Sequence record: NC_104726.1
Length of the DNA stretch: 64,000 nt
Origin: a phage
Strand: one strand, 5' to 3'
The notes beneath the pieces were generated by a model. That model did no database searches, was not told where the DNA came from, and worked only from the letters and a program-made list of their open reading frames with translations. This document shows positions 32,124-38,772 of the stretch, piece after piece; position 1 is the stretch's first letter; every line of letters begins with the position of its first letter. The position numbers were made by a program, and so were the translations under genes.

Positions 32124-32357
32124 ATGAAAGTTAAATTTCTTACAGATTTAGGGTACCCTTCCTTGGTTGACTGTGTCGGTAAAATTGTGGAAGCAAAACG
32201 GCTATCTGCAAACGAGAATGTTGTCCTGGTTAAAGGGAAGGATTTACTAGCTGCAGGTGCAGAGTCTGGCAGGATCTCTCCTGATTATATGTATTACCTA
32301 TCTTTAAGTAATCTGCCAGAGCGAGGCGGTAAAGGCCTTGAAGTTGTGGAGGAGTGA
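32124..32357 (+). CDS. small acidic protein, paralogue family A
   Basis: MKVKFL...LVKGKDLLAAGA...EVVEE pattern shared with ORFs at 35686, 35900, 37416-40076. Confidence 0.55.
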   Translation: MKVKFLTDLGYPSLVDCVGKIVEAKRLSANENVVLVKGKDLLAAGAESGRISPDYMYYLSLSNLPERGGKGLEVVEE

Positions 32358-35402: not shown

Positions 35403-35686
35403 TAATGAAAAAGATTAACAGTAGTGAAGTAGAGTTTAAACTTGTCGGAAAAGGCACTTACTGGGAAGTTCGTCAAAAGGTATATTTGTTCGGTCTTATT
35501 CCCTACTGGTCTAAATTCTACTGGGGAGCTAACGAGTTGGGAAGATATGCCACCAAATCAATGGCACTTATTGGTATAGCAGAGTACATTGCAGCCCGAG
35601 ACAGGGTTGGAACCACTTATTACTACACTGCTGACGATATTCGTAACAGTGTTTACGTCCCACAACCACCTGATGGAGACCGTTGA
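35399..35686 (+). CDS. hypothetical protein (95 aa)
   Basis: ORF, overlap with neighbours. Confidence 0.45.
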   Translation: MIMKKINSSEVEFKLVGKGTYWEVRQKVYLFGLIPYWSKFYWGANELGRYATKSMALIGIAEYIAARDRVGTTYYYTADDIRNSVYVPQPPDGDR

Positions 35687-35910
35687 TGAAAGTTAAAGTT
35701 TTAGATTCAAGCTTCTATATTGGTCAGGAGCCTTTAGTAGGAAAAGTGTTTACTGCTGTCCCTAACGAAGATTACCCTGACCTTTTAAAAATAAAAGGAG
35801 CAGATCTTATTGCCGCTGGTGCATCTCAGGAATGCTTTGACAGTCAGTGGACCTATAACTTTGCCCTAGGTGAGGATGTAGAGGTAGTGGAGGACGATCA
35901 TGAAGGTTAA
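35686..35910 (+). CDS. small acidic protein, paralogue family A
   Basis: MKVKVLDSSFYIGQ...KGADLIAAGA...VEVVED. Confidence 0.55.
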   Translation: MKVKVLDSSFYIGQEPLVGKVFTAVPNEDYPDLLKIKGADLIAAGASQECFDSQWTYNFALGEDVEVVEDDHEG

Positions 35911-36154
35911 AATTCTTGATTCTAACGTCTACTTGGGACAATCCTTCCTGAATGGAAAGGTCGTTCCTGCGGTATACTTTGAAGGGTTGCCGTGGGATGA
36001 TCCTGTGCGGCAACATCACAGTTATGTAGGCCACAACGTGGTGTTTATCTTGGGATCAGACCTGATCACCGCTGGTGCACCTGAATATTATTTCGGGGAA
36101 GAGTCCTACTATGCCTTTGGGGTAGGGTCAGATGCAGATATTGTAGAGCTGTGA
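35900..36154 (+). CDS. small acidic protein, paralogue family A
   Basis: MKVKILDSNVYLGQ...GSDLITAGA...DIVEL. Confidence 0.55.
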   Translation: MKVKILDSNVYLGQSFLNGKVVPAVYFEGLPWDDPVRQHHSYVGHNVVFILGSDLITAGAPEYYFGEESYYAFGVGSDADIVEL

Positions 36155-36166
36155 TGGGTAACCGTT

Positions 36167-36565
36167 GTGAAAAATAAACTGTTTAAAGTTACAATGAAAA
36201 TTCGCGGGGCTTGGAGCGTAAAGCAAGGGCGTATTCCAGAATTTGAGAAAGACTTCTACGTAGTCTCCACCTCGGAGGAGGCTGCATGCTGGCAGGCTGG
36301 CTATGCCTATGCAAGAACCTGGTACGAAGGATACCAGACTGGGGGCTATGACGGAGAAATTATCAGCAAGGGTGTAGAAGAAATTAATGTGTTGACAAGT
36401 GAAAAAGTTTTTGTTATAGTGCATCCAGATTCCAGAGTGAAGCATTACTGGAATGCCAGAACAAAAACTTGGACACCGTTTGCAGATTCTGCTACGCCAC
36501 TTTTAAACCAGAAAGCTCTTGACTCTGCCCCAAGTTATGGGGTTGTTGAAGAAAAGCTAAACTGA
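36167..36565 (+). CDS. hypothetical protein, paralogue family B
   Basis: HPDSRVKHYWNARTKTWTP matches HPHSNIAYYWDVLNNEWTP in the ORF at 38377. Confidence 0.5.
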   Translation: MKNKLFKVTMKIRGAWSVKQGRIPEFEKDFYVVSTSEEAACWQAGYAYARTWYEGYQTGGYDGEIISKGVEEINVLTSEKVFVIVHPDSRVKHYWNARTKTWTPFADSATPLLNQKALDSAPSYGVVEEKLN

Positions 36566-36582
36566 AACAGTGAGGTGTCACC

Positions 36583-36873
36583 ATGATGGATTTAATTCTA
36601 AATATTGATAACGCAGGAGAGTTTAAAGACGATGGTGTAACAAGCATGGACAAACCCTGCTCTGCTAAGGTTGACTCAAAATGGACCTACAAGTTTGACG
36701 GAGAGACCTTCGCAAATGATGAGAAGGTTGTAGATGCTGCAGCCATTTTAAACGCTCTAGGGTACGACCCTGTGAATTCTTTGATCAAGGATCCTGTTGA
36801 GTTTGCAGAGTATGTTCGAAAAATGGCAGATCTTGCTGTGGATATTTTAAAAACTATCGACAACAAGCTGTAA
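36583..36873 (+). CDS. hypothetical protein (96 aa)
   Basis: ORF with SD GAGGTG. Confidence 0.45.
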   Translation: MMDLILNIDNAGEFKDDGVTSMDKPCSAKVDSKWTYKFDGETFANDEKVVDAAAILNALGYDPVNSLIKDPVEFAEYVRKMADLAVDILKTIDNKL

Positions 36874-36879
36874 AAACTG

Positions 36880-36908
36880 TTGACACAACGCTTCAGATTT
36901 AGTATCAT
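36880..36908 (+). promoter_or_regulatory. sigma70-type promoter (TTGACA-17-TATCAT)
   Basis: Read directly: ttgacacaacgcttcagatttagtatcat, upstream of the hpf-like gene. Confidence 0.5.
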
Positions 36909-36957
36909 TGTTTTCAAAGAGAGATAGTTATTCCCTCTTCCTTAAAAGGAACACGTT

Positions 36958-37278
36958 ATGCAAATTGAAATCACTGGCAACAATGTAGAAATCACAGAAG
37001 GTATGGTATCTTTTATTTCCCGCAAAATGTCCAAGCTGGAGCGTTTACATCCCTCTGTTAACTATGCACGTGTGAGTGTAAAAGTTGAAAATGATCACCA
37101 GGAAGTTATGGCGTTCATTTTTGACAATTCTGGAAAAGAAGTTATTGCCAAGGCTAAAGGCAGTGATGCTTACGAGGCAACTGACCGTATGGTAGATGTT
37201 GCAGCACGTCAGCTGGCTAAATGCGGTGGAAAGAAAGGTAAGGGGAAAGGCAAAGTAAAGATTGACTTTGGAGAATGA
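36958..37278 (+). CDS. hpf: ribosome hibernation promoting factor / ribosome-associated inhibitor (HPF/YfiA family)
   Basis: MQIEITGNNVEITEG...KAKGSDAYEATDRMVDVAARQLAK closely parallels E. coli HPF MQLNITGNNVEITEA...AEGQDMYAAIDGLIDKLARQLTK. Confidence 0.85.
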   Translation: MQIEITGNNVEITEGMVSFISRKMSKLERLHPSVNYARVSVKVENDHQEVMAFIFDNSGKEVIAKAKGSDAYEATDRMVDVAARQLAKCGGKKGKGKGKVKIDFGE

Positions 37279-37415
37279 GGTGCTACAATGGGTGTGATTA
37301 AGAAATTAGTCCCAAATGTAGAGATTGCATGCTTTGAAATTATGTTTGCAATCGCAGTTGTAGTTAATGTGTTAGGTTACGGCTATTAATATCAAATAAT
37401 TGAGGAGACCTCTAA

Positions 37416-37685
37416 ATGAAAATTAAATTATTCCAAACTGAGCTGGCAGACAAAAATTGTGGACTGGTTGAAGGCATGATTGTTGAAGCACAACCAGTGG
37501 ACTATATGAAGGTGGTTCGTGATGCCCTAGGTGAAGGTTTTGATCTGATGGAGCCAGCTCTGCGAGAAGATGTTATCGAGATGGCTAAAAAGCACACACC
37601 TGAAGGTTTGGTGGTGTTTGTTGCACCGGGTAACGGAGAAGAGTTGATTGTAACTCCTGATGTGTATGAGATTGTAGAGGAATAA
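37416..37685 (+). CDS. small acidic protein, paralogue family A
   Basis: MKIKLFQ...VVFVAPGNGEELIVTPDVYEIVEE. Confidence 0.5.
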   Translation: MKIKLFQTELADKNCGLVEGMIVEAQPVDYMKVVRDALGEGFDLMEPALREDVIEMAKKHTPEGLVVFVAPGNGEELIVTPDVYEIVEE

Positions 37686-37776
37686 TCCTGCTTGGATTAG
37701 CATACTTCCTCGCTAAGGAAGATTTGTAATTATTTGTGGGAAAGGAGTCCCAATCTCTTACCAGAGGTGATACTAT

Positions 37777-38040
37777 ATGATTGTTTATTTTAAAACTTCA
37801 GGTGGATACCCTGATTCTCAAAGCTTGATCGGAAAAACGTGCACAGCATACTCACCTCTTGATGAGGAGGTAAGCGATATTTTACGAAATATGTATCGGA
37901 TTGACCCCCAAGAAGCCTTTGATCAAAACCTTGTATTTGTCAAGGGCTCAGATATGAAGTCTTTGGGAGCATTCCCTGAAGCAGATGATGATGCCGTTTA
38001 TTCGTTCATGACTCCTTTTGAAGCTATGGTTGTTGGGTGA
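37777..38040 (+). CDS. small acidic protein, paralogue family A
   Basis: LVFVKGSDMKSLGA...EAMVVG. Confidence 0.5.
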   Translation: MIVYFKTSGGYPDSQSLIGKTCTAYSPLDEEVSDILRNMYRIDPQEAFDQNLVFVKGSDMKSLGAFPEADDDAVYSFMTPFEAMVVG

Positions 38041-38044
38041 TAAT

Positions 38045-38377
38045 ATGAAAGTACGCTTTATTGGTGAAACAATTCCTGTGCATCTCCGGTCGCCTGAGGA
38101 TTCTGCAGATCTTGCATCTCAAAAGGCGAGAGGTTATGATAAGAAAGTAACCTCAACCGATGTAGTGCTTGAGGCTACTAGTCTACCTGACCCTGCTGCA
38201 TTCTTTAATCATTATGGGTACTATTTCAGCAATCTGATGAATATCGGTGAGCTTGTGTTTATTAGTGGTGGAGAAATTGTTAGCAAGCTTGGCGGCGATC
38301 CGGATATCTTTCATGAAACCTGTCCTTTTGCATTTGTGGTAGGTTCAGATGTGGAAGTTATTGAGGAGGTGCGGTAA
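38045..38377 (+). CDS. small acidic protein, paralogue family A
   Basis: MKVRFIG...LVFISGGEIVSKLGG...DVEVIEEV; start at internal ATG. Confidence 0.5.
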   Translation: MKVRFIGETIPVHLRSPEDSADLASQKARGYDKKVTSTDVVLEATSLPDPAAFFNHYGYYFSNLMNIGELVFISGGEIVSKLGGDPDIFHETCPFAFVVGSDVEVIEEVR

Positions 38378-38772
38378 TGGTAAGCCTATACCGTGTTGAG
38401 TATAGCTCAGATACTGTATACAACGTAAGAAGCAAAGATCGCAGCGACAGAGTGCAAGAAATGTATGTTCTTGCCGACAGTCCGTTATCTGCAGCGTTCA
38501 AGGCAGGGGCTCTTGCATCTCGTTGGAAATTTGAAGGTGGATCTTTCTATGAAGAAACCCTTGAAGATTCTGTTGTTATTTCTTCTGTAGAGGTTTCAGA
38601 TGACTACGAAGGGAAAAAGTTCGTAATGCGGCACCCACACAGCAACATTGCGTACTACTGGGATGTTCTGAACAACGAGTGGACCCCAGATCTTCAGAAG
38701 GCTACTGTGCTAACACCGTTTTTGGCAGATAAGTTCCCACCAGAAGGTAATTTATCCGCACTGTTTCAGTAA
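38377..38772 (+). CDS. hypothetical protein, paralogue family B
   Basis: Shares the HP-x-S...YW...W-TP block with the ORF at 36167. Confidence 0.5.
   Translation: MVSLYRVEYSSDTVYNVRSKDRSDRVQEMYVLADSPLSAAFKAGALASRWKFEGGSFYEETLEDSVVISSVEVSDDYEGKKFVMRHPHSNIAYYWDVLNNEWTPDLQKATVLTPFLADKFPPEGNLSALFQ

What the first reader, a model, noticed from the sequence alone, without database searches (positions are those of the whole stretch)
36958..37278. Phage-encoded ribosome hibernation promoting factor homologue
ORF 36958-37278 aligns along its whole length with bacterial short HPF/YfiA (MQIEITGNNVEITEG vs MQLNITGNNVEITEA, conserved ARQL-K C-terminus) and adds a Lys/Gly-rich tail. It has its own sigma70-type promoter. 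A phage HPF could silence or protect host ribosomes during infection, or favour phage mRNAs.
Basis: partly seen in the sequence, partly recalled or inferred. Interest (0 to 1): 0.7.

Follow-up and report, generated by a model that had tools for sequence, protein, structure and literature searches.

The report
Known rV5-phage ribosome hibernation factor homologue
The ORF is a real, selectively maintained phage copy of the bacterial ribosome-silencing protein HPF, but it was annotated in phage rV5 years ago and described and tested in a 2019 paper, so only its role in infection remains open.

Summary
ORF 36958-37278 (+) encodes a 106-aa protein. It passes the curated cut-offs of Pfam Ribosomal_S30AE and TIGR00741 (HPF/YfiA family) and is 43% identical to E. 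coli HPF. Its predicted fold superposes on HPF in the 100S ribosome (rmsd 1.1 A). A sigma70-like promoter (TTGACA-17-TATCAT) lies 50 nt upstream.

The window is an rV5-like Vequintavirus. The gene is present in all 118 related records and is under strong purifying selection (dN/dS 0.03-0.09).

It is not new. The rV5 record annotates both the gene (ORF144) and its promoter (P144). Mizuno et al. 2019 listed it as a viral HPF and expressed it in E. coli. They found no peptides in ribosome fractions and no change in 100S. That test used a 500 mM NH4Cl wash on late-exponential cells, so it is inconclusive.

New details from this work:
- About half of the named HPF-ribosome contact residues are replaced (Y30L, T53F, H55F, K80V).
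- The protein is more basic than E. coli HPF (pI 9.0 vs 6.5).
- The Gly/Lys tail is disordered and varies in length but is conserved in character.

Most likely it binds idle host 30S/70S early in infection. Its physiological role is unproven.

The parts
36880..36908 (+). sigma70-type promoter (TTGACA, 17-nt spacer, TATCAT) in the 84-bp intergenic gap upstream of the gene
   Evidence: Consensus scan gives 11 of 12 matches. Annotated as promoter P144 in rV5 NC_011041. The block AAACTGTTGACAC is invariant in 7 Vequintavirus copies and in the diverged sister lineage L002.
36946..36950 (+). Shine-Dalgarno sequence AAGGA, 7 nt before the ATG
   Evidence: Read directly from the sequence. The Murica record annotates an RBS at the equivalent place.
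36958..37227 (+). [quoted passage not shown]
   Evidence: PF02482 covers residues 3-89. The AF2 model has pLDDT 84-97 over residues 1-90. Foldseek top hit is E. coli HPF 6h4n_x, TM 0.88, rmsd 1.1 A. dN/dS is 0.035-0.09.
37228..37278 (+). Disordered basic Gly/Lys tail (GKKGKGKGKVKIDFGE, residues 91-106) plus the stop codon
   Evidence: pLDDT is below 50 for residues 92-106. Residues 89-106 have net charge +4. Length variants of 99-106 aa arise by indels or frameshifts in the GKGKGK repeat. Within the genus almost all tail differences are synonymous, but counts are small.

Best explanation
This is the HPF/YfiA-family gene of rV5-like phages (Vequintavirus ORF144). It was acquired long ago from a gammaproteobacterial short HPF and has been kept under purifying selection.

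Shown: family membership, predicted fold, selection, and a conserved host-type promoter.

Inferred mechanism, step by step:
1. Host RNA polymerase transcribes the gene from a near-consensus sigma70 promoter, as part of the long block of small, probably early, host-takeover genes.
2. The protein docks, like cellular HPF, into the tRNA/mRNA channel between head and body of vacant 30S/70S ribosomes. Retained contacts are K26, D76, R84, K88 and K92. Extra Lys/Arg/Phe on the beta-sheet face and a flexible poly-Lys tail also contribute.
3. No phage record encodes RMF, and the protein has no long-HPF dimerisation domain. The expected product is therefore an idle, factor-occupied 70S rather than a 100S dimer.
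4. The likely benefit is to hold the ribosome pool released from host mRNAs in an intact, nuclease-protected and readily reusable state for phage mRNAs.
For: - Family: PF02482 at 56.7 bits and TIGR00741 at 56.8 bits, both above their cut-offs. 43% identity to E. coli HPF against 25% to YfiA.
- Fold: AF2 model with pLDDT 85 and the beta-alpha-beta-beta-beta-alpha order. The first 36 Foldseek PDB hits are all HPF/YfiA/pY proteins, many of them ribosome-bound.
- Maintenance: present in 118 of 118 related phage records and in a 64%-identical sister lineage in the same syntenic block. dN/dS is 0.035-0.09.
- Conserved positions: all family positions conserved at 85% or more are retained (M1, G7, T13, K23, D70, Y72, D76, Q85).
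- Contact surface: identity at named ribosome-contact positions is 0.38. That is typical of bacterial homologues of similar overall identity (mean 0.37; 101 of 141 controls are equal or lower) (contact list).
- Charge: the protein is more basic than E. coli HPF (pI 9.0 vs 6.5; core K+R 12 vs 9).
- Expression: promoter found and conserved.
- No RMF homologue in any phage record.
Against: - The only experiment found no rV5 HPF peptides in 70S/100S fractions, although the protein was present in crude extract, and no change in 100S (PMC6375957).
- Several named contact residues are replaced by residues that are rare or absent in over 100 bacterial homologues: D/E51M, T53F, H55F, Y30L, K80V.
- Conservative similarity at contact positions is low for the family (0.46; only 12 of 141 controls are equal or lower).
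- The score is far below NCBI's HPF equivalog cut-off (65 vs 125 bits).
- There are no expression-timing data for any Vequintavirus. 'Early' is inferred from the promoter type and gene block only.
- The protective benefit is pure inference.
Confidence: 0.5

Rival explanations
1. Anti-hibernation decoy. The phage protein occupies the HPF/YfiA site but binds weakly and reversibly and cannot cooperate with RMF. Its longer tail may intrude towards the RMF site, as the YfiA tail does. It would thereby prevent or reverse host 100S or inactive-70S formation, so that phage mRNAs are translated in starved or stressed cells.
For: - Mizuno et al. proposed this.
- Salt-labile or absent binding fits their negative result.
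- Contacts that stabilise HPF are remodelled: T53/H62 with m2G966, H55 with the uS9 C-terminus, K80.
- The tail is 11 residues longer than that of E. coli HPF. The YfiA tail is reported to run towards the RMF site and block RMF.
- No phage RMF was found.
Against: - Any occupant of the decoding channel itself blocks tRNA and mRNA, so a decoy must leave very fast.
- Expression in E. coli did not reduce the small 100S peak.
- The tail is basic, unlike the acidic end of the YfiA tail.
- Basic tails of this length are common in ordinary bacterial family members (28 of 108 have net charge +4 or more).
Confidence: 0.2
2. Neofunctionalised fold. The protein no longer binds ribosomes. It uses the HPF (dsRBD-like) scaffold for another ligand, such as another RNA or a nucleotide immune signal, in the way the structurally similar phage sponge Acb4 does.
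For: - No peptides in ribosome fractions despite expression.
- Clade-specific residues conserved between the two phage lineages differ from the bacterial consensus: V17, S40, F55, K60, K65, K67, A71, T75.
- The score is below both the HPF and RaiA equivalog cut-offs.
- Acb4 has a related alpha/beta RNA-binding-type fold and resembles V. cholerae HPF 4HEI.
Against: - 43% sequence identity to HPF over the whole core and retention of the most conserved family positions.
- Contact-position identity is within the bacterial range.
- The substitutions are to Lys, Arg or Phe, which are typical RNA-binding residues, and overall basicity increased.
- Acb4 similarity is structural only and was not tested here.
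- The negative ribosome experiment used conditions that are expected to strip hibernation factors (plus general knowledge).
Confidence: 0.12
3. Host translation shut-off or selectivity factor. By occupying the A/P sites and the mRNA channel of free 30S/70S, the protein raises the threshold for initiation. Strongly initiating phage mRNAs would then out-compete host mRNAs.
For: - Position in the promoter-rich small-gene block typical of takeover functions.
- The family's known mode of action is to block tRNA, mRNA and initiation-factor sites.
- Other phages target ribosomes immediately on infection (PhiKZ014, PMC10914614).
Against: - Expression in E. coli gave normal ribosome profiles and evidently viable cultures.
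- There is no evidence of any mRNA discrimination mechanism in this family.
- A lytic 137-kb phage needs maximal translation capacity.
Confidence: 0.12

Closest known systems
E. coli / Enterobacterales short HPF (YhbH; PDB 2RQL, 4V8H, 6H4N)
   Same: [quoted passage not shown]
- 43% identity, with a nearly identical N-terminus (MQ-I-ITGNNVEITE) and the ARQL-K motif in helix 2.
- Retains K26, E44, E60, D75, R83, K87 and K91 (HPF numbering).
   Different: - Scores 65 bits against a 125-bit equivalog cut-off.
- Contact residues are replaced: Y30L, D51M, T53F, H55F, K80V.
- Helix 2 ends in Gly-Gly, followed by a Gly/Lys tail 11 residues longer.
- pI 9.0 against 6.5.
- Driven by a constitutive-type sigma70 promoter on a lytic phage instead of the host rpoN-operon context (general knowledge).
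- No RMF partner is encoded by the phage.
E. coli YfiA / RaiA (protein Y)
   Same: - Same fold and same ribosomal site.
- Has a C-terminal extension beyond the HPF length. In YfiA this extension heads towards the RMF site and favours inactive 70S over 100S.
- RefSeq names the phage protein 'RaiA'.
   Different: - Only 25% identity.
- 22.8 bits against a 158-bit RaiA equivalog cut-off.
- The YfiA tail is net acidic (-4), whereas the phage tail is net basic (+4).
rV5 gp139 / ORF144 (ABI79209, YP_002003641), the 'viral HPF' of Mizuno et al. 2019
   Same: The same gene. It is 97% identical (105 vs 106 aa; a one-residue N8/N9 indel plus R22H and V34A) and sits in the same position with the same promoter.
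   Different: Nothing substantive. The window copy belongs to the slur16/Murica/HeinrichReichert subgroup (99.9% DNA identity).
Other phage ribosome-targeting early proteins (e.g. PhiKZ014)
   Same: A phage-encoded protein that would bind host ribosomes at the start of infection (PMC10914614).
   Different: PhiKZ014 has no cellular homologue, clamps the 5S rRNA on the 50S subunit, and is experimentally shown to bind. The rV5-type protein is a captured host factor aimed at the 30S decoding channel, and binding has not been shown.

Membership tests
HPF/YfiA family (Pfam PF02482 Ribosomal_S30AE; TIGR00741) | Profile-HMM score above the curated cut-off over the full domain | tested here: met
   PF02482 scores 56.7 bits against a 23.7-bit cut-off, covering residues 3-89 of profile positions 1-83/88. 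TIGR00741 scores 56.8 bits against a 40.9-bit cut-off.
HPF/YfiA family | [quoted passage not shown] | tested here: met
   The AF2 model gives E2-8, H14-30, E34-43, E48-56, E61-68, H71-90 with mean pLDDT 85. Foldseek PDB hits 1-36 are all HPF/YfiA/pY proteins. This is a prediction, not a solved structure.
Enterobacterial short HPF (NCBIfam NF007780 equivalog) | Score at or above the 125-bit equivalog cut-off | tested here: not met
   65.2 bits. It is the best-scoring model but lies well below the cut-off.
RaiA/YfiA (NCBIfam NF007654 equivalog) | Score at or above the 158-bit equivalog cut-off | tested here: not met
   22.8 bits and 25% identity to E. coli YfiA.
Short HPF (functional) | Conserved ribosome-contact residues: the helix-2 basic track 80/83/87/89/91/93, T53/H62 with m2G966, H55/E60 with the uS9 C-terminus, and Y30 stacking on A790 | tested here: inconclusive
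   - R83, K87, K91, E60, D75 and K26 are retained.
- K80V, T53F, H55F, Y30L and D51M are replaced. K89 and K93 depend on how the Gly-rich tail is aligned.
- Contact identity of 0.38 is typical for the family. Contact similarity of 0.46 is at about the 8th percentile of 141 controls.
- The contact list is taken from bioRxiv 10.1101/2025.10.07.680626.
Short HPF (functional) | Physical association with 30S/70S ribosomes | not testable with these tools
   The published test was negative by mass spectrometry after a 500 mM NH4Cl cushion on late-exponential cells (PMC6375957). The authors themselves call it inconclusive.
Short HPF (functional) | Promotes 90S to 100S conversion together with RMF | not testable with these tools
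   There was no change in the 100S peak on expression. No RMF homologue was found in any of 50,697 phage records.
Long HPF (Firmicutes type) | C-terminal dimerisation domain after a linker (about 180-190 aa in total) | tested here: not met
   The protein has 106 aa. Residues 92-106 are disordered and there is no second domain.
Acb4-type viral nucleotide sponge | Sequence or structural membership in the Acb4 family, oligomeric ligand pockets | not tested
   The only link is a literature note that Acb4's fold resembles HPF 4HEI. No Acb4 sequence was available to compare.

The most novel reading that the evidence does not exclude
The Vequintavirus protein is not a hibernation factor in the host sense. 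It would instead be a remodelled HPF mimic, either an anti-hibernation or anti-defence decoy at the decoding channel or a protein with a new RNA or nucleotide ligand. Its clade-specific surface (F53, F55, K60, K65, K67, loss of K80, Gly/Lys tail) would have evolved to keep host ribosomes available to the phage or to blunt a ribosome-directed host response.
Probability: 0.2. Interest if true: 0.6.

Novelty: already known. Interest (0 to 1): 0.2.

Why it matters
Phages that carry captured translation factors are a route to understanding how viruses manage host ribosomes. A proven phage HPF would show that ribosome hibernation is a target, or a tool, of infection. It could also bear on phage performance against stationary-phase or persister cells.

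This particular gene has been annotated since the rV5 genome and was analysed and tested in 2019. The scan finding itself therefore adds nothing new. What remains valuable is the unresolved question of whether the protein binds ribosomes under native conditions, and the residue-level map of what the phage lineage changed.

Tried and rejected
- **Chance or spurious ORF:** rejected. E=4e-15, and dN/dS is 0.03-0.09.
- **Recent capture from the E. coli host:** rejected. Identity to E. coli HPF is only 43%. An exhaustive HMMER search shows an isolated phage cluster, then a gap to bacterial proteins of 44% identity or less.
- **The tail as a novel appendage:** rejected in part. Basic C-terminal extensions of this length and charge are common in bacterial members (median 21 residues after K88; 28 of 108 with net charge +4 or more). 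Only the Gly/Lys repeat composition is unusual.
- **A second S30AE gene next door**, as some records annotate ('sigma 54 modulation factor' x2): rejected. The 89-aa neighbour and nine other neighbours have no significant Pfam hit.
- **A phage-encoded RMF partner:** none found.
- **A regulatory 5'-UTR hairpin:** the fold is not better than shuffles (z -0.9 to -1.1).
- **Literature searches for newer functional work** on phage HPF or Vequintavirus transcriptomics found nothing beyond Mizuno 2019.
- **Polikanov 2012 (PMC3377384)** could not be read. Contact data were taken from a 2025 preprint instead.

Full report
**Observation**

The ORF at 36958-37278 (+) is present as described: ATG start, 106 codons, and an AAGGA ribosome-binding site 7 nt upstream.

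Profile support:
- Pfam Ribosomal_S30AE (PF02482): 56.7 bits against a 23.7-bit gathering score.
- NCBIfam TIGR00741 (HPF/YfiA family): 56.8 bits against a 40.9-bit cut-off.
- PHROGs: placed in phrog_12469 ('unknown function', E=1e-69), with a weaker hit to the S30EA phrog_8990.

The promoter claim also holds. TTGACA-17-TATCAT (11 of 12 matches) lies at 36880-36908, in the 84-bp gap before the gene.

**What the window is**

The region is 99.9% identical to Escherichia phages slur16, slur12, navn, Murica and HeinrichReichert (genus Vequintavirus, rV5-like myoviruses of about 137 kb). The gene lies in a long co-directional run of small hypothetical genes. The rV5 paper describes this as 88 mainly small ORFs within one transcriptional unit. 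Ten neighbouring ORFs have no significant Pfam match.

**Already known**

All 118 related phage records carry the gene. Many label it 'sigma 54 modulation factor', 'ribosome hibernation promoting factor' or 'RaiA'. The rV5 RefSeq record annotates ORF144 as similar to the Klebsiella oxytoca sigma(54) modulation protein. It also annotates a 'Sigma70-type promoter; P144' at the homologous position.

Mizuno et al. 2019 (Nat Commun, PMC6375957) did the following:
- listed the rV5, FV3, JES-2013, FFH2 and typing-phage-14 proteins as viral HPFs;
- noted that they cluster among gammaproteobacterial HPFs;
- proposed that they might compete with cellular HPF to relieve translation inhibition;
- expressed the rV5 protein in E. 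coli.

Peptides were found in crude extract but none in 70S/100S fractions, and the 100S peak did not change. The cells were harvested at OD 1 (end of exponential phase), and the ribosomes were pelleted through 500 mM NH4Cl. The authors themselves list growth phase and salt stripping as possible reasons. From general knowledge, hibernation factors bind vacant ribosomes and are removed by high-salt washes, so the test is inconclusive. Literature searches found no later functional work.

**Anatomy**

An AlphaFold2 model built on a 37-sequence alignment has mean pLDDT 85. It shows the canonical beta-alpha-beta-beta-beta-alpha order (E2-8, H14-30, E34-43, E48-56, E61-68, H71-90) and a disordered tail (residues 92-106, pLDDT below 50). 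Foldseek against the PDB returns E. coli HPF in the hibernating 100S ribosome as the top hit (6h4n_x, target-normalised TM 0.88, rmsd 1.1 A). It is followed by 35 further HPF/YfiA/pY chains.

The protein is 43% identical to E. coli HPF and 25% to YfiA. It scores best on the enterobacterial HPF equivalog model, but at 65 bits against a 125-bit cut-off. It scores 23 bits against a 158-bit cut-off for RaiA. It is therefore a family member but not an equivalog of either host protein.

**Evolution**

An exhaustive HMMER scan of 1.84 billion cluster representatives finds one close cluster (P0004, 64-66% identity). There is then a gap to bacterial proteins of 44% identity or less. P0004 comes from 125-137-kb metagenomic contigs. 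These carry the gene in the same block of small genes and share about 73-76% DNA identity with Vequintavirus over a third of the region. No isolate in the phage collection carries it. The gene therefore predates the split of these two lineages.

Within Vequintavirus the core has dN/dS of 0.035-0.09 (for example 26 synonymous against 5 non-synonymous differences between the window and EcoIv14a). Tail differences are almost all synonymous, though counts are small. Against P0004, synonymous sites are saturated. Even so, the promoter block AAACTGTTGACAC is invariant.

Searching with E. coli HPF finds family members in only 129 of 50,697 phage records. Of these, 118 are the same rV5-like records found with the phage protein. 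The rest include Xanthomonas jumbo phage XaC1 and a few short contigs.

**Is the ribosome-binding surface intact?**

Against 108 bacterial homologues, every position conserved at 85% or more is retained (M1, G7, T13, K23, D70, Y72, D76, Q85). Most moderately conserved basic positions are retained too (K26, R29, R84, K88, K92).

A 2025 preprint gives residue-level contacts for enterobacterial HPF:
- a helix-2 basic track at 80/83/87/89/91/93;
- T53 and H62 on m2G966;
- H55 and E60 on the uS9 C-terminus;
- Y30 stacking on A790.

The phage protein keeps K26, E44, E60, D75, R83, K87 and K91. It has Y30L, D51M, T53F, H55F, H62I and K80V. It ends helix 2 with Gly-Gly, so the alignment of K89 and K93 is ambiguous. 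Several of these residues (M51, F53, A71, V17) occur in none of the bacterial sequences.

Measured against 141 bacterial homologues of comparable overall identity to E. coli HPF:
- contact-position identity is 0.38, which is ordinary (control mean 0.37);
- conservative similarity is 0.46, which is low (12 of 141 are equal or lower);
- the basic-track count is 4 (3 in P0004), below the usual 5-6.

The replacements are mostly Phe, Lys or Arg. The core has more basic residues than E. coli HPF (12 vs 9), and the pI rises from 6.5 to 9.0. I read this as a remodelled RNA-binding surface, not an abandoned one. This is inference.

**The tail**

Residues 89-106 (CGGKKGKGKGKVKIDFGE) carry net charge +4. 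Public copies range from 99 to 106 aa through indels and frameshifts in the GGx-AAx repeat (Murica, APCEc02, YN3, S127). All keep at least KCG-KKGKG. The sister lineage has an unrelated but also basic tail.

Basic extensions of this size are common in bacterial family members (28 of 108 with net charge +4 or more; median length 21). Only the Gly/Lys composition is unusual. The tail of YfiA is reported to run towards the RMF site and to exclude RMF. Whether the phage tail does the same cannot be decided here.

**Mechanism**

Shown: family membership, predicted fold, purifying selection, and a conserved host-type promoter.

Inferred: the protein is made by host RNA polymerase, probably early. 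It enters the decoding channel of vacant 30S/70S. No phage record encodes RMF, and there is no long-HPF dimerisation domain. It would therefore yield idle, occupied 70S rather than 100S. I consider a protective 'parking' role the most likely one: preserving ribosomes released from host mRNAs until phage mRNAs need them. Overall confidence in this chain is about 0.5.

Rivals:
- an anti-hibernation decoy (0.2);
- a neofunctionalised fold with a non-ribosomal ligand (0.12), by analogy with the HPF-like fold of the phage sponge Acb4;
- a shut-off or selectivity factor (0.12).

Low-salt gradients or cryo-EM of infected cells, together with a deletion phage, would discriminate among them.

**Verdict**

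Interest as a discovery is low. The residual interest lies in the unresolved function and in the lineage-specific remodelling documented here.

Noticed in passing
window 32124-32357, 35686-35910, 35900-36154, 38045-38377; and 36194-36565, 38377-38772: The HPF gene is flanked by two families of paralogous small proteins with no Pfam match. One is a family of 74-110-aa acidic proteins (35686-35910 vs 35900-36154: 40% identity, E=3e-14). The other is a pair of about 130-aa proteins (31% identity, E=1e-7). This suggests local duplication in the small-gene block.
   Followed up: partly
window 37288-37389 (+): A 33-aa strongly hydrophobic ORF (MGVIKKLVPNVEIACFEIMFAIAVVVNVLGYGY) starts 9 nt after the HPF stop codon. 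It is annotated in rV5 (ORF145) and other records, once as 'putative membrane protein', and is probably co-transcribed with the HPF gene.
   Followed up: no
public records matching window 36958-37685: Annotation is inconsistent. The same gene is called 'ATP-dependent protease La Type I' in several records and 'RaiA' in RefSeq, although it is much closer to HPF. In APCEc02, S127 and others the label 'sigma 54 modulation factor' sits on the neighbouring 89-aa gene (window 37416-37685), which has no S30AE match.
   Followed up: yes
phage collection hits to window 36400-37800: Eighteen GenBank records named 'Campylobacter phage' (MG0656xx; host given as Campylobacter or C. jejuni) are 97-99.9% identical to E. 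coli rV5-like phages over this region. The host labels look doubtful.
   Followed up: no
window 36979-36984 and 37228-37275: There are two in-frame length polymorphisms among otherwise near-identical copies. One is N8-N9 (window, Murica, HeinrichReichert; the same as E. coli HPF) against a single N (rV5 and most others). The other is slippage-type indels or frameshifts in the GKGKGK tail repeat, giving proteins of 99-106 aa.
   Followed up: yes
window 36918-36938 (5'-UTR): A short hairpin pairs an SD-like AGAGGG with an anti-SD-like CCCTCT just upstream of the real RBS. It is perfect in rV5 and has one mismatch in the window. In the sister lineage the GAGGG itself serves as the RBS. Folding energy is not better than shuffles (z about -1).
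   Followed up: partly
L002 4001-4312 (metagenomic contigs of 125-137 kb): A sister lineage of Vequintavirus-like phages is known only from metagenome and Logan assemblies, plus one NCBI record labelled E. coli. It carries a 64%-identical HPF homologue with a different basic tail and is absent from the isolate phage collection.
   Followed up: partly
protein P0123 (representative library): A 1160-aa protein matches the phage HPF in 8 separate stretches (E=5e-9), which suggests a tandem array of S30AE-like domains. Its origin is unknown.
   Followed up: no
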